This document shows, piece after piece, positions 56,169 to 62,238 of a stretch of DNA of 64,000 nt. The notes under the pieces were generated by a model. That model did not search any database. It was not told the origin of the DNA and worked only from the letters and a program-made list of their open reading frames with translations. This DNA is from Prosthecobacter sp. (GTDB taxonomy: Bacteria; Verrucomicrobiota; Verrucomicrobiia; Verrucomicrobiales; Verrucomicrobiaceae), in assembly GCF_044222565.1 (NCBI RefSeq), contig NZ_JBGANA010000033.1, positions 5,923-69,922 on the forward strand, read 5' to 3'. A program made the translations under genes and the position numbers. Every line of letters starts with the position of its first letter. Position 1 is the stretch's first letter.

Positions 56169-57296
56169 TCAGCCCAGCGTGAATGCCGGCAGCTTCACGA
56201 TCTTGCCACCTGCCATGGCGGACTGATGTGCGCAGAGGCCCACGCAGGTCCAGTTGGCGGACTGAGTGGCGTTCGGAAAGGGCTGGCGCTTTTCAGCGAG
56301 GGCATTCGCAAACTCGTTGGCAAGATGAGGATGGCTGCCACCATGGCCGCTGCCCTGGGTGAAGCTGAGATGCGTCTTCTTGCCGAGATCATACACGCCC
56401 TTTGTGGTGAAGCGCTGGATCGGCCTGGGCAGGCGTTTGGCAAAATCGGGTGTCTTGATCAATTTCGGGATCTTGTGCTCGGGCAGTTTGGCGCGGTGCA
56501 GGACGAGCGGCTCATGCTCGATGAGCGGCCATTCGATGGAGGCTTTGTCACCATAGACGTCGATGCTTTCACGATACTGGCGGGCGGTGTCAAACAGACT
56601 GCGGATGATGCGGGCGTTCACATCGGTACCTTTAAATTTGATGTGCGCAGTCTCGACAGCAAAGGGGGAGCCGTAACATTTTTGCAATTCTTTGCGCACC
56701 GTGCCGGAACCAAAGCAGCTCACGTATTCGGCGGGCTTGCCGATCATGCCGGCCACGGGGCCGACGCAGTGGGTGGCGTACCACATCGGCGGCAGGCCGG
56801 GCCAGTAGTTCGGCCAGCCGTCCATGTCCTGCTGGTGGGAGGCCTGCACGAACTGCAGCTTGCCCAGCTTGCCTTGATCGAGCTGCTCCTTCATGAAGAG
56901 GTACTCGCGTGCATAGACGACGGTCTCCATCATCATGTACTTAAGGCCGGTCTTCTTGACGAGATCGCAGATCTTTTTGCAGTCTTCGATGCTGGTGGCC
57001 ATCGGTACGGTGCAGGCCACGTGCTTGCCCGCTTTGAGCGCCTCGATGCTCATCCATCCATGATCAGGAATGGGGGAGTTGATGTGCACGGCGTCGATGT
57101 TCGGATCCTTGAGCATCGCCTTGAAATCCGTATAGCGCACGTCCACATCGAAGGCATCACCGATGGTGTTGAGCTTCTTCTCATCGCGCTGGCAGATGGC
57201 GTAGCAGGTGGTCAGCGGGTGGCGCTGCCAGATGGGTATGAATTCCGCCCCGAAACCGAGGCCTACGACGGCGATGTTGAGCTTTTTGTCTGACAT
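56169..57296 (-). CDS. Gfo/Idh/MocA family oxidoreductase
   Basis: IAVVGLGFGAEF, IDAVHINSP, GKHVACTVPMA, YATHCV.P; ATG 57296. Confidence 0.9.
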   Translation of the reverse strand: MSDKKLNIAVVGLGFGAEFIPIWQRHPLTTCYAICQRDEKKLNTIGDAFDVDVRYTDFKAMLKDPNIDAVHINSPIPDHGWMSIEALKAGKHVACTVPMATSIEDCKKICDLVKKTGLKYMMMETVVYAREYLFMKEQLDQGKLGKLQFVQASHQQDMDGWPNYWPGLPPMWYATHCVGPVAGMIGKPAEYVSCFGSGTVRKELQKCYGSPFAVETAHIKFKGTDVNARIIRSLFDTARQYRESIDVYGDKASIEWPLIEHEPLVLHRAKLPEHKIPKLIKTPDFAKRLPRPIQRFTTKGVYDLGKKTHLSFTQGSGHGGSHPHLANEFANALAEKRQPFPNATQSANWTCVGLCAHQSAMAGGKIVKLPAFTLG

Positions 57297-57393
57297 GATG
57301 TTTGGTAGGATGACGCGGCTGTTATAGGCGGGAACGGCGGGAAATGGGAAGGACAAAGTTTAGGAGGAATCGGACGGAGAGGGCCGCTGCGCG

Positions 57394-57525
57394 GCGTTTG
57401 CAGTTGTTTGCAATGGCTGAGGGCTTGCTGCGCAAGCGTTTGCAGTTGTTGGAAGAGAGTTCCGCTTCTGGTCCATCTGACAACCATTGCAAACCATCGC
57501 AAACCACTGCAAACAATCGCCAACC
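57394..57525. repeat. Inverted tandem-decamer element between divergent genes
   Basis: Left arms GCGTTTGCAGTTGTT x2 (57394, 57436); right arm caaccattgc-aaaccatcgc-aaaccactgc-aaacaatcgc-caacc (57481-57525), the reverse complement of the same GTTTGCRRTK unit. Confidence 0.85.
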
Positions 57526-57530
57526 CTCCA

Positions 57531-58511
57531 ATGCTTACTTCCGACTTCGACTACCACCTGCCGCCTGAACTCATTGCCAGTGAGCCGCTGGTGGAGAGAT
57601 CGGCCTCGCGCATGATGGTGGTGCACAGGAAGGAGGGTCGGATCGAGCACCGGATGTTTCGGGAGGTCGGAGAGTTTGTGTCCGAAGAGGCGGGAGACCT
57701 GCTGGTGCTGAATGACACGAGGGTGGTTCCCGCGCGCTACTTCACCGACAAAGGGCACGAGGTGCTGCGGTTGCAGATCCTGACGCCGACCCGCTGGCGC
57801 TGCATGGTGAAACCGGGGAAGAAATTTCGTGTTGGTCACACCGCCCGAATCGGCGAAGCCATAGGCACGGTGGTGGAGATCATGGAGGACAATGGTGACC
57901 GCATCATCGAGTTCGACCGTGTGGTGGATGAGACCAAGCACGGGCACCTGGCGCTGCCGCATTACATGGGGCGTGATGATCAGCCGGCGGATCGTGAGCG
58001 GTATCAAACCGTGTTCGCACGAAGCGAAGGCTCCATCGCTGCGCCGACTGCGGGGCTGCACTTCACGCCGGAGGTGCTGAATCCGCTGCCCCATGTCTTC
58101 GTAACGCTGCATGTGGGTGTGGGCACATTTCAGCCGGTGAAGGTGGAGAACATCGCGGAACACAAGATGCACTCCGAAGTGTATGAAGTTTCAGCCGCGA
58201 CGGCTCAGGCCGTGCACGACGCGAAACGGGTGATTCCTGTGGGCACTACAGCGCTGCGCACGCTGGAGACAGTGGCGCGTGATCATGGCAAGGTCATAGC
58301 CACGCAGGGCAGCACGGATATTTTCATTCATCCGGGTTTTGAGTTTAAAGTGGCGGGTGGGCTGCTGACGAATTTCCATCTGCCCAAGTCCACGCTCATC
58401 ATGCTAGTGAGTGCGTTCGCGGGCAAAGAGCTGGTGATGGAGGCGTATGCAGAGGCGATTCGGGAAAGGTATCGCTTTTTCAGCTATGGGGACTGCATGA
58501 TGATTGTGTGA
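57531..58511 (+). CDS. queA: S-adenosylmethionine:tRNA ribosyltransferase-isomerase
   Basis: SDFDYHLPPELIA, LVLNDTRV, LPHYM, DRERYQTVFA, AAPTAGLHFT, TLHVGVGTFQPV, LLTNFHLPKSTL, YRFFSYGDCM. Confidence 0.98.
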   Translation: MLTSDFDYHLPPELIASEPLVERSASRMMVVHRKEGRIEHRMFREVGEFVSEEAGDLLVLNDTRVVPARYFTDKGHEVLRLQILTPTRWRCMVKPGKKFRVGHTARIGEAIGTVVEIMEDNGDRIIEFDRVVDETKHGHLALPHYMGRDDQPADRERYQTVFARSEGSIAAPTAGLHFTPEVLNPLPHVFVTLHVGVGTFQPVKVENIAEHKMHSEVYEVSAATAQAVHDAKRVIPVGTTALRTLETVARDHGKVIATQGSTDIFIHPGFEFKVAGGLLTNFHLPKSTLIMLVSAFAGKELVMEAYAEAIRERYRFFSYGDCMMIV

Positions 58512-58554
58512 CGAGGATGCTCCTTGCCAGAGCGAAGGCCCCGAGACGCTCGTG

Positions 58555-58578
58555 TGCAGGCAGGAGTGCCCACATCAC
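58555..58578 (-). repeat. REP-like palindrome, third copy of the 33.8-kb family
   Basis: Reverse complement GTGATGTGGGCACTCCTGCCTGCA matches 33807-33830 at 23/24 positions; lies between convergent queA and aas. Confidence 0.75.
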
Positions 58579-58612
58579 TTTTCCCAGGCCAGTTGCGGCG
58601 CAACTGGGCAAC

Positions 58613-60799
58613 TTACGTCCCCGCCTTCGCAATCTTCTCGCAGCTCTGCACGTCCAGCTTGCCGGAGGCGAGCACAGGGATGTCGCTGACGCGGATCATC
58701 TTTTTGGGAATCCAAAGTGGTGGCATGCCTTTGTCGAGAAGGCGGTAGCGGAGGTCCAAGATCTCCTGGTGCTCGGGGCCGCCGGGCATGCTGGTGAGAA
58801 GGATGAGAGCCTCTCCTTTGTCCACGTCCGGAACGCCAACGACGGCGATCTTGCGCACGGTTTCGTTTTCGAGCCCCATGGCTTTCACCAGCGCTTCTTC
58901 CACGGTTTCATGCGGCACCATCTCACCGGCGATCTTGGAGAAGCGGCTGAGGCGGCCTTCGATGTAAAGAAAGCCATCGAGGTCCACGCGACCGATGTCC
59001 CCCGTGCGGAACCAGCCGTCCTTGAGCACTTCGGCGCTGCGCTTGGGATCATTGAGGTAGCCTTCGAAAACGTTCGGCCCCTTGAACCAGATCATGCCGC
59101 TTTGATGCAGCGGCACCGGAGCGTCCGTTTCAGGATTGGTGATGCGCACCGCCATGCCGGGCACGACGTGTCCCACCGATCCCTGCCGGTGGCTGGGAAG
59201 CCAGCTGTGTCCGCTCTCCTCATCACCGAGCGGTTCGGGGTCCGGAAGGTTCAGGTTGGAGGCAGGCGAGGTTTCGGTAAGGCCGTAGCCTTCCAGCACA
59301 CGTTTGCCAAACCGTGCCTCAAAGGCATCTGCCACGGTGCTTGGCAGCTTTTCCGCGCCGGTGACGCAGTATTTGATGGAGTTCAGCGACTCACGGTTCA
59401 CGCCGCGCAGGTAGCTGCGCAGGAAGGTGGGCGTGGAGATCATGAGGGTGATGCGATATTTCTCGATCAACTGGGCGAGCTTTTTCACCTCCATGGGCGA
59501 GGGATAGGTCACAAGATGCAGCCCGTAAATGATCGGGAACCAGAGCGTGACCGTGCAGCCAAAGCTGTGGAAGAGCGGCAGGCAGCCAAGGATGCTGTCA
59601 TTGCTCTGCATGCCGAGGCGGCTGCCAAACTGCATGACGTTGGAAATGAGATTGCGGTGGGTTAGAGCAACTCCTTTTGGCTCACCGGAACTGCCGCTGG
59701 TGAAAAGCAGCAGCGCCTCCTTGCGCCCGCCTTTCTTCGAGATGCCGAGCAGCGCCGCCAGCACTGCGGCGGGCAGCACCTTGCTAAGAACCAGCCACTT
59801 GGCGATGGAGACTTTCATCTTCGGCAAAATGCGTTCGATGAGGATGAGCTGCTTGCTCGGCGGCCAGGGGAAGCTTTGCATCTTGCGCACAAAAATGTCC
59901 GCAGTGAGGAAGCGGTCGATCTCGCCACGGCGGATGGCGCTGTCGATGGCGGCACGTCCGGCGGTGAAGTTGAGATTCACCGGGATTTTCCCTGCGAGTA
60001 CGACGGCCACATTGCAGATGAGGCCGCCAAGACCCGGAGGCAAAATGATCCCGACGCGCGCCTTCTTGGTCTCACGCTTCACCACCTGGGAAAGAGCCAG
60101 CGCAGTGGCAAAGACCTTGTCAAAGCGCAGGATTTTTTCATCCTTGCCGTCCACCACGCTGTTGCGGGTGCCATGCTTTTTAAAGCCCTGGATCAAAGCG
60201 TAGCCAAGACTGAGCTCAAGCGCGGCACATTCACTGATGCTTTGCTCAGAGAGCAGCAGCAGGGCCTCCTGATAGCTGGCGAGATTGGCTTCCGTCCCCT
60301 GTAGCAGCCGGCCAAAATTGAAGATTGCTTCGGCGTCGGTGTAGCGGCGCTCGATCGGCAGTGCGGTATCCTGCCGCCGGTGCACATACATCGGCAGCAC
60401 CGGGATTTCGGCCTTGAGCAGAAACTCGAGTTTTGTGCCCGGCACGGTGGTCATGGGCGAGGCCATCGTGGCCGCCTCGGCTGGGAGATAAATGATGACG
60501 GAGCCGGATTTGGCGGCGTCCGCCATGGCGCGGCGGTAGGCGGAGACCTCCGTCTCGCCGGGGGAAAACTCCAGGGCATGAACGTGCTCCCGCTCAAGAT
60601 GCGCCCGCAGCAGCGGGTGCAGCGCCGCACCTTTTCTCACCACGTAAACCACTTCACGTCCTCCCAGAACGAGTTCCAGCCGGAGCAGGTCAAAGTAACC
60701 GAGCTGGCTGGGCAGGATCATGAATCCGCCTCCTGAGGGCAGGTTCTCTTTGCCGAGGATCGTGAGGTCTTTGAGGGTGACGGGCTTTTCAGAGGCCAT
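58613..60799 (-). CDS. aas: Aas-like protein: degenerate acyltransferase-like N-terminus + acyl-ACP synthetase (AMP-binding) domain
   Basis: LLFTSGSSGEPKGV.LTHRNL, LPLFHSFG, EGYGLTETSP, GPNVFEGYL, GWFRTGD, RLSRFSKIAGEMVPH. Confidence 0.85.
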   Translation of the reverse strand: MASEKPVTLKDLTILGKENLPSGGGFMILPSQLGYFDLLRLELVLGGREVVYVVRKGAALHPLLRAHLEREHVHALEFSPGETEVSAYRRAMADAAKSGSVIIYLPAEAATMASPMTTVPGTKLEFLLKAEIPVLPMYVHRRQDTALPIERRYTDAEAIFNFGRLLQGTEANLASYQEALLLLSEQSISECAALELSLGYALIQGFKKHGTRNSVVDGKDEKILRFDKVFATALALSQVVKRETKKARVGIILPPGLGGLICNVAVVLAGKIPVNLNFTAGRAAIDSAIRRGEIDRFLTADIFVRKMQSFPWPPSKQLILIERILPKMKVSIAKWLVLSKVLPAAVLAALLGISKKGGRKEALLLFTSGSSGEPKGVALTHRNLISNVMQFGSRLGMQSNDSILGCLPLFHSFGCTVTLWFPIIYGLHLVTYPSPMEVKKLAQLIEKYRITLMISTPTFLRSYLRGVNRESLNSIKYCVTGAEKLPSTVADAFEARFGKRVLEGYGLTETSPASNLNLPDPEPLGDEESGHSWLPSHRQGSVGHVVPGMAVRITNPETDAPVPLHQSGMIWFKGPNVFEGYLNDPKRSAEVLKDGWFRTGDIGRVDLDGFLYIEGRLSRFSKIAGEMVPHETVEEALVKAMGLENETVRKIAVVGVPDVDKGEALILLTSMPGGPEHQEILDLRYRLLDKGMPPLWIPKKMIRVSDIPVLASGKLDVQSCEKIAKAGT

Positions 60800-60874
60800 G
60801 GGTGGGAGGCAGAATGCAGGTTTGGCGTACGTAAGCGGGGAGAGACGCGCATGCCAGCGGGAAAGCAGAGGGAA

Positions 60875-60984
60875 GTTGACGGTAGTTTACAGTTGTTGAC
60901 GATGGTTGACGGTGGAAAGAAAGAGCCAAACCACCCTCAACGCTCGAGCACCGATCCCTCAGCCGCCGTCAACCACCGTCAACC
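60875..60984. repeat. Inverted tandem-decamer element between divergent genes
   Basis: Left arm gttgacggta-gtttacagtt-gttgacgatg-gttgacggtg (60875-60914), 48-nt spacer, right arm ccgccgtcaa-ccaccgtcaa-cc (60963-60984). Confidence 0.85.
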
Positions 60985-60996
60985 GCCCCTTCCCCC

Positions 60997-62238
60997 ATGC
61001 CCCCTCCCCCGCGTTTTCCCCGCCGTGATTCGCCCCCGCCGCCTCCGCCCGGAAGCGACGGCTGGCTGCGGCCCTGGGCACAGATGAAGTACTTTTCCTT
61101 TCATCCGGCCGTATACCCCAACATGCTGCGTGCGGTGTCTCCAGACGCCGGGCCGGGGGATCTGGTGAACGTCTATGACAAGGAAGGGCAGCTCTTTGGC
61201 AGCGGTTTTTACAATGCGAACGCCCGCGTGCCGCTGCGGGTGCTGCAGCATGGCGAGGATGTGCTGAATGAGGACCTGCTGGACGCCCGGCTGGATGCCG
61301 CGCTGGATCTGCGACTGAAAACGCTGCGGCTCAACGAAACGACCGACGCCTGGCGGGCGGTGTCCTCGGACGGGGACGGCCTCAGCGGACTGGTGGTGGA
61401 CCGGTATGGCGATGTGCTCTCCATCGAAGTGACCTCCCTGGGAGTCTGGCGCCGTCTTTCCCGCTGGCTGCCCAAGCTGCACACTGCACTAGGCACGAAG
61501 CAGCACGTCATCGAGGTTGATCCAGACATCGCCCGGGTTGAGAACATGCGCCGGGCGGACGTGCCTGAAGCGGACGATCCAGCCCCCCGCAGCGTACGAA
61601 TTCGCGAAAATGGCGTGCGCTATCAGGTGAGCTTCGAAGACGGGCACAAAACGGGTTTCTTCTGTGATCAGCGGGACAACCGCCAGAAATTTGGCCACCT
61701 TGCCCGAGGTCGGCGCGTCCTGGACCTGTGCAGCTACACCGGGGGGTTTTCCCTGAACGCCCGCGTGCTCGGTGGCTGCGAGGATGTGACGGCCGTGGAT
61801 CTCGATGAAAAAGCCATCGCCCAGGGCAAGAAGAATGCGGATTTAAACCAGGTCCGAATCGACTGGGTGCATGCGGATACTTTCAGCTGGGGCCGCCAGA
61901 TGCAGCAAAACGGATCGCTCTGGGACGCCGTGGTGCTGGACCCGCCGAAGCTCGTCTTCTCCCGCGATGCGGAAGAAGGCCAGCTCGGCCGCAACAAATA
62001 CTACGATATGAATGCAGTGGCCCTCGGCCTGCTGAAGCGTGGCGGCCTGTTCGTCACCTGCTCATGTTCCGGGCTGCTGGATGTCGCTGAATTTGAGGAG
62101 ATTGTCATGCGTGCCGCGCACCGGAACAAGCGCCGGCTGCAGATCCTTGACCGCACGGGGGCCGGAGCGGACCACCCGGTCATGTCGAATTGTCCGGAGA
62201 GCCGCTACCTGAAGGTGCTGTGGTGTCTGGCGTGGTGA
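60997..62238 (+). CDS. RlmI/RlmK-family SAM-dependent rRNA methyltransferase
   Basis: PUA-like N-terminus; SDGDGLSGLVVDRYG, GHKTGFFCDQRDNR, RVLDLCSYTGGFS, VVLDPPK, TCSCSG, ESRYLK. Confidence 0.92.
   Translation: MPPPPRFPRRDSPPPPPPGSDGWLRPWAQMKYFSFHPAVYPNMLRAVSPDAGPGDLVNVYDKEGQLFGSGFYNANARVPLRVLQHGEDVLNEDLLDARLDAALDLRLKTLRLNETTDAWRAVSSDGDGLSGLVVDRYGDVLSIEVTSLGVWRRLSRWLPKLHTALGTKQHVIEVDPDIARVENMRRADVPEADDPAPRSVRIRENGVRYQVSFEDGHKTGFFCDQRDNRQKFGHLARGRRVLDLCSYTGGFSLNARVLGGCEDVTAVDLDEKAIAQGKKNADLNQVRIDWVHADTFSWGRQMQQNGSLWDAVVLDPPKLVFSRDAEEGQLGRNKYYDMNAVALGLLKRGGLFVTCSCSGLLDVAEFEEIVMRAAHRNKRRLQILDRTGAGADHPVMSNCPESRYLKVLWCLAW

What the first reader, a model, noticed from the sequence alone, without database searches (positions are those of the whole stretch)
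57394..57525. Inverted tandem-decamer element upstream of queA (family member 1)
Arms of ~10-bp repeats (GTTTGCRRTK) face each other around a short spacer in a divergent promoter region, and the right arm ends 5 nt before the queA ATG. A 10-bp period places repeated sites on one helical face, as in iterons or protein-coating arrays. The inverted arms could also fold into a long RNA/DNA hairpin. It has no spacers, so it is not CRISPR, and it has no single TIR/TSD.
Basis: partly seen in the sequence, partly recalled or inferred. Interest (0 to 1): 0.62.

Follow-up and report, generated by a model that had tools for sequence, protein, structure and literature searches.

The report
Gene-less decamer-repeat hairpin element
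The odd repeat just upstream of queA is real: it is an empty copy of a scattered, non-coding hairpin element whose arms are tandem 10-base units. The one gene-carrying copy of this family holds a small four-helix-bundle gene of the type found in ribosomal-RNA intervening sequences, so this is not a queA control array.

Summary
Window 57396-57524 carries two inverted arms of 10-bp GTTTGC-type units. The left arm is split by a 22-nt mini-hairpin, and the right arm ends 6 nt before the queA ATG.

It belongs to a dispersed family: 70 arms in this 8.15-Mb genome versus 0 in a shuffled genome. The family occurs in 15 of 24 same-genus relatives (named hits are Prosthecobacter/Brevifollis) and in 0 of 16 genomes from other families of the order.

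Arms usually have four units, in two flavours (A or G at unit position 5), and both arms of an element always share one flavour. Their outer ends sit about 12 nt from a start or stop codon in every gene-orientation context, which argues against a promoter-specific array.

No RAYT or transposase gene lies next to them, and no target duplication was seen.

The family's one gene-bearing copy carries a PF05635 four-helix-bundle gene (23S rRNA IVS protein). Other PF05635 paralogs here sit between arms of other unit types.

Most likely this is a gene-less IVS-like hairpin cassette, probably transcribed as a stem-loop. How it spreads is unknown.

At this locus, 37 nt of the queA-proximal arm are invariant across four species, suggesting local co-option.

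The parts
57396..57415 (+). Left arm, outer two decamer units (GTTTGCAGTT GTTTGCAATG)
   Evidence: Orthologous units in G001, G002 and G006 differ only at the variable unit positions 4, 7, 8 and 10.
57416..57437 (+). 22-nt mini-hairpin module inserted in the left arm (GCTGAGGGCTTGCTGCGCAAGC; reverse complement GCTTGCGCAGCAAGCCCTCAGC)
   Evidence: It folds as its own small stem. It is present in E1 of the own genome, G001 and G002 but absent in G006. The same module type interrupts the arms of the orthologs of the sibling element E2.
57438..57457 (+). Left arm, inner unit GTTTGCAGTT plus degenerate unit/inner motif GTTGGAAGAG
   Evidence: The inner motif ..AGAGTTCC.. resembles the inner ends of other arms in this family, including arms of the gene-bearing cassette, where that stretch encodes the C-terminus of the four-helix-bundle protein. 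This resemblance is suggestive only.
57458..57474 (.). Apex/spacer of the foldback
   Evidence: It is the most variable part among the four orthologs.
57475..57524 (-). Right arm: five units (GTT strand is the minus strand); 57485-57521 is the 37-nt block invariant among species
   Evidence: The 37-nt block shows 0-1 differences in 37 nt among the own genome, G001, G002 and G006, while queA third-codon divergence among them is 0.28-0.44.
57525..57530 (+). C-rich 6-nt linker (CCTCCA) between the arm and the queA ATG; there is no Shine-Dalgarno motif
   Evidence: The family's outer flank consensus is TCCCCC on this strand. Genome-wide, SD motifs are depleted and C is enriched upstream of start codons.
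57531..58511 (+). queA (tRNA ribosyltransferase-isomerase), the flanking gene on the right
   Evidence: PF02547, E 1.4e-115; translation.
56169..57296 (-). GFO/IDH/MocA oxidoreductase gene, the divergent neighbour; its start lies 100 nt from the left arm
   Evidence: PF01408, E 6.6e-23. The 57297-57376 block upstream of it is conserved in all seven syntenic relatives.
60874..60985 (.). Sibling family member E2 (GTTGAC flavour), between the aas-like gene and rlmI
   Evidence: Its orthologs in six relatives carry either flavour.
33964..33993 (-). Third, degenerate decamer arm of the family within the window (C3:39886-39915)

Best explanation
E1 is a gene-less ('empty') copy of a dispersed, non-coding hairpin element family found in Prosthecobacter/Brevifollis-type Verrucomicrobiaceae.

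Each arm is a module: GGGGGA, then about four tandem GTTKRCNRTK units, then a degenerate fifth unit. Two arms face each other across a variable loop.

The family has a gene-bearing form. The same decamer arms enclose a PF05635 four-helix-bundle gene, the protein family encoded inside 23S rRNA intervening sequences (IVS). The element is therefore best read as an IVS-like cassette sitting at protein-gene boundaries, with many copies that lack the gene.

Inferred mechanism:
- The element is transcribed with its neighbours and forms a long imperfect stem-loop whose base lies a few nucleotides from the flanking start or stop codons.
- Like IVS stems, it is probably processed by RNase III or simply tolerated, so insertion at a gene junction costs little.
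- It turns over by gain, loss and replacement at the same junctions. The machinery is unidentified. The four-helix-bundle protein is the only candidate partner, and there is no transposase and no target duplication.

It is not a queuosine-specific operator or an iteron array. However, its queA-proximal arm has become locally constrained and probably now forms part of the queA leader or promoter.

Shown here: anatomy, family, distribution, gene-boundary placement, turnover, the PF05635 link, and local conservation.

Inferred only: transcription, RNase III processing, any role of the protein, and the way the element spreads.
For: **A real dispersed family**
- 70 arms versus 0 in a shuffled genome.
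- Present in 15 of 24 same-genus genomes and 0 of 16 genomes from other families of the order.
- A scan of 185,000 species hit almost only Prosthecobacter, Brevifollis and Verrucomicrobiaceae records.

**Modular arms**
- The commonest length is 4 units (42 of 70 arms).
- 60 of 70 arms are pure for A or G at unit position 5, against 9.5 expected if units varied independently.
- Both arms had the same flavour in 38 of 38 two-arm cases.
- The outer flank consensus is GGGGGA.

**Placement at gene boundaries**
- The outer ends lie a median of 12 nt from a coding-sequence boundary. 36 of 60 are within 15 nt, against 7.8 expected (p<5e-5).
- Gene-orientation context equals the genomic background (p 0.62).

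**Gain and loss**
- A clean filled site in G006 matches an empty site in the own genome, where two convergent stop codons abut (cattga|tcacga). There is no target duplication.
- Presence varies across 12 junctions in 8 species.
- E1 is present in 4 of 7 syntenic genomes.
- The whole intergenic element differs between the own genome and G014 at loci whose flanks are >90% identical.

**Link to PF05635**
- The own-genome gene at C16:236584-236958 lies between decamer arms.
- It matches Pfam PF05635 at E 1.3e-32, TIGR02436, and PDB 2gsc.
- In G008, G015, G001, G006 and G021 the gene's stop codon lies 3-4 nt inside the inner end of the + arm, so the gene is cargo rather than a neighbour.
- Its ortholog is in 11 genus genomes, all with arrays, and in none of the 9 array-free genomes (Fisher p 0.001).
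- Three other PF05635 paralogs in this genome sit between arms of other unit types (GTTWNAR, ATGAAKK, GAGGAC), and each of those unit types is itself a dispersed family.

**Published parallels**
- The Coxiella IVS has a 28-bp terminal stem, tandem GACAGAT heptamers and an S23p ORF, and is excised by RNase III (PMC4990558).
- GGGNATC heptamer arrays in Xanthomonas and Nostoc show the same preference for four units, the same polarity toward ORFs and the same inverted pairs, and most are transcribed (PMC4692102).

**Hairpin potential of E1**.

**Local constraint**: 0-1 differences in 37 nt versus third-codon divergence of 0.28-0.44. Typical same-flavour orthologous arms differ by 10-18%.
Against: - Transcription and RNase III processing rest on analogy only.
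- The two arms of one element are no more complementary to each other (0.81) than to arms from unrelated loci (0.83), even when G-U pairs are counted. There is therefore no sign of selection for pairing beyond the unit consensus and the flavour. This fits unit-by-unit recognition at least as well as a stem.
- Abundant arrays persist in genomes that lack the four-helix-bundle ortholog (G014 about 100 hits, G002 49, G012 35). The protein is not needed for persistence.
- The gene-array association is partly circular, since the gene's own arms count as hits, and it is not corrected for phylogeny.
- E1 itself carries no gene.
- Many copies are kept at the same junction across species with synonymous divergence of about 0.4. 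Core unit positions change about 10 times more slowly than positions 7 and 10. This looks more like host-level constraint or ongoing homogenisation than like junk.
Confidence: 0.58

Rival explanations
1. Protein-binding array with a host or element function. Each arm is a row of four to five phased sites read unit by unit by an oligomeric protein. The pentameric four-helix-bundle protein is the obvious candidate; a nucleoid-type protein is another. The inverted pair would be a symmetric binding platform rather than a functional hairpin.
For: - Unit positions 1, 3, 6 and 9 change in 1-5% of orthologous unit pairs, while positions 7 and 10 change at near-neutral rates of 36%.
- There is no excess complementarity between the arms of one element.
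- Flavour is pure within arms and concordant between arms, 38 of 38.
- The unit count stays near four to five whatever the unit length (10, 7 or 6 nt). This would suit a pentamer (PDB 2gsc has five chains; pentamer stated in PMC4990558).
- Each PF05635 paralog is flanked by its own unit type.
Against: - No binding data exist.
- One genome holds both flavours but only one ortholog of the decamer-armed gene.
- Arrays persist where that gene is absent.
- The consensus-based detection of arms inflates the apparent conservation of the core positions.
Confidence: 0.22
2. Locus-specific cis-regulatory element of queA. On this reading the foldback, or at least its right arm, is the queA leader, promoter or attenuator, and family membership is incidental.
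For: - 37 nt of the right arm, ending 10 nt before the ATG, are invariant in four species despite 28-44% third-codon divergence. The loop, the left arm and the 6-nt linker all vary.
- The alternative GTTTCAG array at the same site is also nearly identical between G014 and G007, whose third-codon divergence is 0.51.
- The C/A-rich, G-poor arm matches the genome's SD-less, C-rich leaders.
Against: - Three unrelated unit families occupy this site in different species, so no single sequence is required for queA.
- There is no Rfam match and no sigma-70-like promoter or terminator.
- The same element type sits next to stop codons and between convergent genes elsewhere.
- Start-adjacent arms at other loci are not unusually conserved.
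Confidence: 0.12
3. REP/REPIN-type element moved by a RAYT (Y1 HUH) transposase, or a classical MITE derived from an insertion sequence.
For: - It is a dispersed, extragenic, hairpin-forming, non-coding repeat with patchy distribution among relatives.
- The genome holds 18-23 Y1_Tnp homologs.
Against: - No Y1 gene lies within 1.5 kb of any array, and most are more than 10 kb away.
- Y1 genes are equally abundant in array-free congeners (G017 has 27, G018 has 19) and occur in 39 of 41 genomes.
- There is no target duplication at the one clean filled/empty pair.
- No transposase-bearing copy with these arms was found.
- Copies are not near-identical, as recent MITE copies would be. Inter-locus identity is at the floor set by the unit consensus.
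Confidence: 0.05

Closest known systems
23S rRNA intervening sequences (IVS) carrying an S23p/PF05635 ORF (Coxiella burnetii, Leptospira, Brucella; Warrier et al. 2016, PMC4990558)
   Same: - Complementary termini form a long stem.
- Short tandem repeats lie inside the arm region (GACAGAT heptamers in Coxiella).
- A PF05635 four-helix-bundle ORF sits in the loop of the full form.
- Copies with a decaying ORF or none exist.
- No transposase is known.
   Different: - This element sits between protein-coding genes, not in helix 25 or 45 of 23S rRNA.
- The arms are built from 10-nt units in two flavours.
- There are dozens of gene-less copies per genome.
- RNase III excision has not been shown here.
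GGGNATC / GGGGAYT heptamer repeat arrays of Xanthomonas and Nostoc (Rehm et al. 2015, PMC4692102), and more broadly cyanobacterial STRR and Beggiatoa TAACTGA repeats (PMC4679880)
   Same: [quoted passage not shown]
- Strict polarity: the G-rich strand lies downstream of stop codons on the sense strand and upstream of starts on the antisense strand, within 50 bp of the ORF.
- Frequent convergent inverted pairs.
- The type (single array or pair) is conserved between related species.
   Different: - The unit here is 10 nt with no G-tracts, so the G-quadruplex explanation offered in that paper cannot apply.
- That paper does not link the arrays to PF05635 genes.
REP/BIME and REPIN-RAYT systems
   Same: - Extragenic, hairpin-forming, dispersed and mosaic.
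- One vertically inherited gene copy flanked by the repeat, with many gene-less copies. This is the analogous layout if the four-helix-bundle gene takes the place of RAYT.
   Different: - The flanked gene is a four-helix bundle, not a Y1 transposase.
- RAYT adjacency and co-occurrence were tested here and not met.
- The arms are tandem arrays rather than single palindromes.
   Same: Tandem short units that fill the gap between genes of operons, with their ends flush against the flanking stop and start codons.
   Different: MIRUs are direct repeats of 46-100 bp with small coupled ORFs. They have no inverted arms.

Membership tests
REP/REPIN-RAYT | A RAYT (Y1_Tnp, PF01797) gene flanked by its own REP copies | tested here: not met
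   18 Y1 homologs were located in the own genome. The nearest array is at least 1.5 kb away and most are more than 10 kb away.
REP/REPIN-RAYT | Repeat family and RAYT co-occur across genomes | tested here: not met
   PF01797 occurs in 39 of 41 genomes, including array-free G017 (27 copies), G018 (19) and G022 (12).
REP/REPIN-RAYT | Dispersed extragenic palindromic repeat able to form a hairpin | tested here: met
MITE | Target-site duplication flanking the insert | tested here: not met
   In the filled (G006) versus empty (own C34:481486-481489) pair, the insert sits between two abutting stop codons with no direct repeat. Only one clean pair was examined.
MITE | A parent autonomous element with the same terminal inverted repeats and a transposase | tested here: not met
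   Regions between distant or direct arm pairs hold ordinary genes (purT, accD, a NusG-like gene and others). The only gene enclosed by the arms is PF05635.
23S rRNA IVS / S23p cassette | Inverted termini forming a long stem around a loop | tested here: met
23S rRNA IVS / S23p cassette | PF05635 ORF inside the element | tested here: inconclusive
   Met for the family: own C16 and the orthologous cassettes in G001, G005, G006, G008, G015 and G021. Not met for E1 itself, which is gene-less.
23S rRNA IVS / S23p cassette | Located in helix 25 or 45 of the 23S rRNA gene | tested here: not met
   E1 lies between the GFO/IDH/MocA gene and queA. All 46 array-bearing regions lie between protein-coding genes.
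23S rRNA IVS / S23p cassette | Excised from the transcript by RNase III | not testable with these tools
The published basis is PMC4990558.
Heptamer STRR / GGGNATC-type arrays | Preference for four units, and polarity toward the nearest ORF regardless of that ORF's orientation | tested here: met
   42 of 70 arms have 4 units. 36 of 60 outer ends are within 15 nt of a coding-sequence boundary, while inner ends lie a median of 188 nt away. Compare PMC4692102.
Heptamer STRR / GGGNATC-type arrays | G-tracts able to form a G-quadruplex | tested here: not met
   The unit profile GTTKRCNRTK has no run of three G.
Iterons | Direct repeats at a replication origin next to a rep gene and bound by its product | tested here: not met
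   There are 46 chromosomal intergenic regions in all gene contexts. The neighbours here are a GFO/IDH/MocA oxidoreductase gene and queA. Binding was not tested.
CRISPR | Repeats of 23-47 bp separated by unique spacers of similar length | tested here: not met
   The units are contiguous 10-mers with no spacers.
Integron attC | RYYYAAC at the 5' end and GTTRRRY at the 3' end of the site on either strand | tested here: not met
   Here the GTT ends are on the outer left and the AAC ends on the outer right, which is the opposite topology. The cassettes are not in an array next to an integrase. The attC consensus is quoted from my own knowledge.

The most novel reading that the evidence does not exclude
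PF05635 four-helix-bundle proteins (the S23p family, which are pentamers) are the cognate partners of dispersed tandem-unit hairpins. Each paralog would recognise the four to five units of its own arm type:
- decamer GTTKRC with C16:236584-236958;
- heptamer GTTWNAR with C42:41407-41817;
- ATGAAKK heptamers with the C28:139138 gene;
- GAGGAC hexamers with the C6:195231 gene.

Together these would form repeat-protein partnerships, analogous to REPIN-RAYT but without a known nuclease. They would colonise and replace one another at cistron boundaries. E1 would be one footprint of that system. This reading would also explain the long-puzzling STRR/GGGNATC-type arrays and the rRNA IVSs with a single mechanism.
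Probability: 0.25. Interest if true: 0.8.

Novelty: new variant of a known kind. Interest (0 to 1): 0.55.

Why it matters
Short tandem arrays that hug gene ends have been described several times without a mechanism: STRR in cyanobacteria, GGGNATC in Xanthomonas, TAACTGA in Beggiatoa. The small S23p proteins of rRNA intervening sequences have likewise had no function for 30 years.

This Prosthecobacter genome shows both features side by side.
- There are several unit families.
- Each has one copy that encloses its own PF05635 paralog.
- Each has many empty copies flush against start and stop codons.
- Copies turn over quickly between species, and the two arms switch flavour together.

This makes a concrete, testable link between the two puzzles. 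For annotation, it warns against reading such arrays upstream of housekeeping genes as operators.

For this particular locus the practical point is modest. queA is preceded by an inserted hairpin whose proximal arm has become conserved.

Tried and rejected
- **Rfam** at permissive threshold over 57000-61300: no match.
- **Sigma-70 promoter and intrinsic terminator scan**: nothing.
- **ECF-type or OmpR/PhoB-type site reading** of the units: considered and dropped. The spacing does not fit AAC-N16/17-CGT, and the arms show no preference for promoter contexts.
- **'Filled' versions among distant or direct arm pairs** in the own genome: these hold only ordinary housekeeping genes. The real filled copy was found only through the PF05635 search.
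- **RAYT hypothesis**: rejected.
- **Selection for a hairpin**: intra-locus complementarity was compared with inter-locus complementarity, with and without G-U pairs. There was no excess. RNAalifold on the four E1 orthologs gave 2 of 44 pairs with double changes, which is uninformative.
- **An apparent inversion of queA in G014, G006, G001 and G002**: this was my error. Those loci are stored in contig orientation. It was corrected, and all share the GFO<- ->queA layout.
- **Pattern hits outside Verrucomicrobia** (Paenibacillus, Bacillota, Chloroflexia, Methanoculleus and others): these are perfect decamer satellites in unrelated contexts. They are compatible with chance among all decamer arrays, at about 1 in 400 by my estimate.
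- **DGR-like adenine mutagenesis** as the cause of the A/G flavours: rejected. Only A and G occur, and no reverse transcriptase is adjacent.
- **Literature search** for Prosthecobacter repeats: nothing relevant.
- **PF13366 nuclease genes**: they exist in this genome and one is flanked by hairpins of a different repeat, but none is associated with the decamer arms.

Full report
**1. The observation**

The region reads, on the + strand:
- GC GTTTGCAGTT GTTTGCAATG (57396-57415)
- GCTGAGGGCTTGCTGCGCAAGC (57416-57437)
- GTTTGCAGTT GTTGGAAGAG (57438-57457)
- a 17-nt apex
- ATCTGACAAC CATTGCAAAC CATCGCAAAC CACTGCAAAC AATCGCCAAC (57475-57524)
- CCTCCA, then ATG (57531)

queA is confirmed (PF02547, E 1e-115). 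The divergent neighbour is a GFO/IDH/MocA oxidoreductase gene whose ATG is at 57296 on the minus strand.

So two arms of 10-bp units do face each other, and the right arm ends 6 nt before queA. The left arm is interrupted by a 22-nt module that forms its own small stem.

The strand folds into a long imperfect hairpin, as RNA (-56 kcal/mol, z -3.7) and as DNA (-32.7 kcal/mol, z -3.4). None of 200 shuffles did as well.

Rfam, promoter and terminator scans found nothing.

**2. A family, not a one-off**

In the whole 8.15-Mb assembly, chains of at least three in-phase units matching GTTKRC..T. number 70. A shuffled genome has none. TRF, which does not use my consensus, finds the same arrays.

- Forty-two of the 70 arms have exactly four units.
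- Units come in two flavours, A or G at position 5 (GTTGAC/GTTTAC versus GTTTGC/GTTGGC).
- Sixty of 70 arms are pure, where 9.5 would be expected if units varied independently.
- Eleven loci are close inverted pairs, always of one flavour.
- Four loci have a GC-type arm followed by an AC-type arm in the same orientation.
- Outside the first unit the consensus is GGGGGA. Inside the last unit there is a degenerate fifth unit.

The pattern occurs in 15 of 24 same-genus genomes (2-128 hits) and in none of 16 genomes from other families of the order. A reversed-pattern control gave 0-3 hits.

A scan of one genome per 185,000 species returned almost only Prosthecobacter, Brevifollis and Verrucomicrobiaceae records. 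The few hits in other phyla are perfect decamer satellites, compatible with chance.

**3. Where the arms sit**

This analysis uses my own rough gene calls (5,898 genes, 88% coding). Sixty arms lie in 46 intergenic regions.

- The outer (GGGGGA) end is a median of 12 nt from a coding-sequence boundary. 36 of 60 are within 15 nt, against 7.8 expected under uniform placement (p<5e-5).
- The inner end is a median of 188 nt from the next gene.
- The outer neighbour is a stop codon 25 times and a start codon 14 times.
- Tandem, divergent and convergent contexts match the genomic background (p 0.62).

On the sense strand of any neighbouring gene, the GTT-rich strand follows the stop codon and the C/A-rich strand precedes the start codon.

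This is the polarity that Rehm et al. reported for GGGNATC heptamer arrays in Xanthomonas and Nostoc. They also reported a preference for four units, frequent convergent inverted pairs, and transcription of most copies (PMC4692102).

This context independence argues against a promoter-specific operator or an iteron.

In passing, this genome lacks Shine-Dalgarno signals. SD-like motifs are depleted upstream of start codons (8.4% versus 12.3% in a control window). Leaders are C-rich and G-poor, with C at position -1 in 66% of genes. The C/A-rich arm therefore resembles a native leader.

**4. Evolution at orthologous junctions**

I fetched 12 junctions in seven relatives and 17 array loci of G006.

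- Presence varies. Some junctions are filled in nearly all species, some only in the own genome plus G014, and one only in the own genome.
- One clean pair shows the insert sitting exactly between two abutting convergent stop codons (own cattga|tcacga). The filled version in G006 has no target duplication.
- In every one of 38 two-arm cases both arms had the same flavour. Yet flavour differs between species at the same junction (loci 0, 1, 3, 4, 5, 7, 9, 10).
- Between the own genome and its closest relative G014, flanks are over 90% identical. Even so, the whole intergenic element differs at loci 0, 5, 7 and 9, starting at the start or stop codon. Elements are therefore replaced or converted as units.
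- In same-flavour orthologous units, positions 1, 3, 6 and 9 differ in 1-5% of pairs. Positions 7 and 10 differ in 36%, close to queA third-codon divergence (0.28-0.51). This estimate is inflated by consensus-based detection.
- The arms of one element are no more complementary to each other (0.81) than to arms of unrelated loci (0.83), with or without G-U pairs.

**5. E1 itself**

All seven closest relatives share the GFO<- ->queA layout and a conserved 80-nt block next to the GFO-family gene. An apparent queA inversion was my misreading of locus orientation.

- E1 is present in the own genome, G001, G002 and G006.
- G014 and G007 instead carry a GTTTCAG heptamer array at the same spot.
- G012 carries a GTTGATG heptamer array.

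So three unit families occupy one junction.

Within E1, the 37 nt CATTGCAAACCATCGCAAACCACTGCAAACAATCGCC (57485-57521) show 0-1 differences among four species. Their queA third-codon positions differ by 28-44%. The loop, the left arm and the 6-nt linker all vary. Typical arms differ by 10-18%. This points to an added local constraint, most simply that the arm now serves in the queA leader or promoter. That is inference.

**6. What moves or accompanies it**

Y1/RAYT genes are numerous (23 hits). None lies near an array, and they are just as numerous in array-free congeners. The REP-RAYT reading fails two defining tests.

Earlier notes from this scan (e1-2474491, e1-5209377) pointed to four-helix-bundle genes inside tandem-unit hairpins, so I searched for PF05635. 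One of five own-genome hits, C16:236584-236958, lies between decamer arms at 236541-236580 and 237033-237082. It matches:
- PF05635 (E 1.3e-32);
- TIGR02436;
- PDB 2gsc, five chains.

In G008, G015, G001, G006 and G021 the same gene at the same junction lies between the inner ends of a + arm and a - arm. Its stop codon is 3-4 nt from the + arm. In G005 a degenerate arm lies beside the gene's start codon instead. The arm flavour is AC in some species and GC in others.

Orthologs with at least 76% identity occur in 11 genus genomes, all array-bearing. They occur in none of the nine array-free genomes. They are also missing from five array-bearing genomes, including G014 with about 100 hits (Fisher p 0.001). 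This association is not phylogeny-corrected and is partly circular.

Three other PF05635 paralogs in this genome are flanked by arms of other units:
- GTTWNAR heptamers at C42;
- ATGAAKK heptamers at C28:139138;
- GAGGAC hexamers at C6:195231.

Each of these unit types is itself a dispersed family.

The heptamer family is also restricted to the genus (18 of 25 genus genomes, 0 of 16 outside). Its C42-type gene is flanked by heptamer arms in G014 and G008. G011 and G016 have the heptamer gene and arrays but no decamers. G005, G009 and G015 show the reverse pattern.

PF13366 nuclease genes exist, and one is flanked by a different hairpin repeat, but none is tied to the decamers.

**7. Reading**

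The closest described object is the ORF-bearing intervening sequence of 23S rRNA. That element has inverted termini forming a 28-bp stem, tandem heptamers, and an S23p (PF05635) ORF. It is excised by RNase III, and its origin is unknown (PMC4990558).

E1 is best read as a gene-less member of a decamer-armed, IVS-like hairpin cassette family that lives at protein-gene boundaries. By analogy, it is probably transcribed as a stem-loop and processed or tolerated.

The lack of arm-to-arm co-variation, the unit-level conservation and the constant unit number keep a protein-recognition model alive, possibly involving the pentameric four-helix-bundle protein. I rank it second. The two readings are not exclusive.

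The means of spread remains unknown.

**8. Limits**

- Gene calls are my own heuristic.
- Arm detection uses a consensus.
- Many relatives are MAGs.
- Associations are not corrected for phylogeny.
- Only one clean empty/filled junction was examined for a target duplication.

Noticed in passing
whole genome (G000); e.g. window 57525-57530: Shine-Dalgarno-like motifs are depleted upstream of start codons (8.4% versus 12.3% in a control window). Leaders are C-rich and G-poor, with C at position -1 in 66% of 4,399 ATG-start genes and CCTCC-like motifs enriched. Translation initiation in this organism appears to be independent of SD.
   Followed up: partly
window 33054-33085: A perfect (AAACTTG)x4.6 array belongs to a second dispersed family of GTTWNAR heptamers (45 hits in this genome; restricted to the genus). 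Its gene-bearing copy encloses another PF05635 gene at G000:C42:41407-41817.
   Followed up: partly
G000:C40:270071-270110: A four-unit GTTGAC-type array lies inside the open reading frame of an epoxyqueuosine-reductase-like (QueG-like) gene. It falls within an insertion of about 90 codons and reads in frame as ...PPSTTVNNGQPPST.... This may be an array tolerated within a coding region.
   Followed up: no
G000:C5:151924-152811: A tandem two-domain PF13366 (GxxExxY-type PD-(D/E)xK) gene is flanked on both sides by hairpins built from CGCAGAGAT-type units (TTTACACCGCAGAGATTGGATAAACGCAGAGATTT...). Copies of the same hairpin lie in the loop of a decamer element at C40:270574-271103.
   Followed up: no
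window 57416-57437 and orthologs of 60874-60985: A 22-nt mini-hairpin module (GCYYGCGCAGCRRGCCYTCAGC on the C/A-rich strand) recurs as an insert between units of arms at different loci and in different species.
   Followed up: partly
L245 (G021:C27:28600-29600): The junction that holds an empty decamer foldback in five species (own C1:167328-167414) is occupied in G021 by a different PF05635 gene with CTAGAT-type arms. Different cassettes therefore use the same junction.
   Followed up: partly
whole genome (G000): There are 18-23 diverged single-copy Y1_Tnp (IS200/RAYT-like) genes, none next to the decamer arrays. What repeats, if any, they are associated with was not examined.
   Followed up: no
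G000:C5:74062-75497: A run of about 15 copies, spaced about 101 bp apart, each containing three TGAACACGGA-type decamers. Related ATCCGTGTCA arrays occur at window 34260-34290 and elsewhere. This is a separate repeat family.
   Followed up: no
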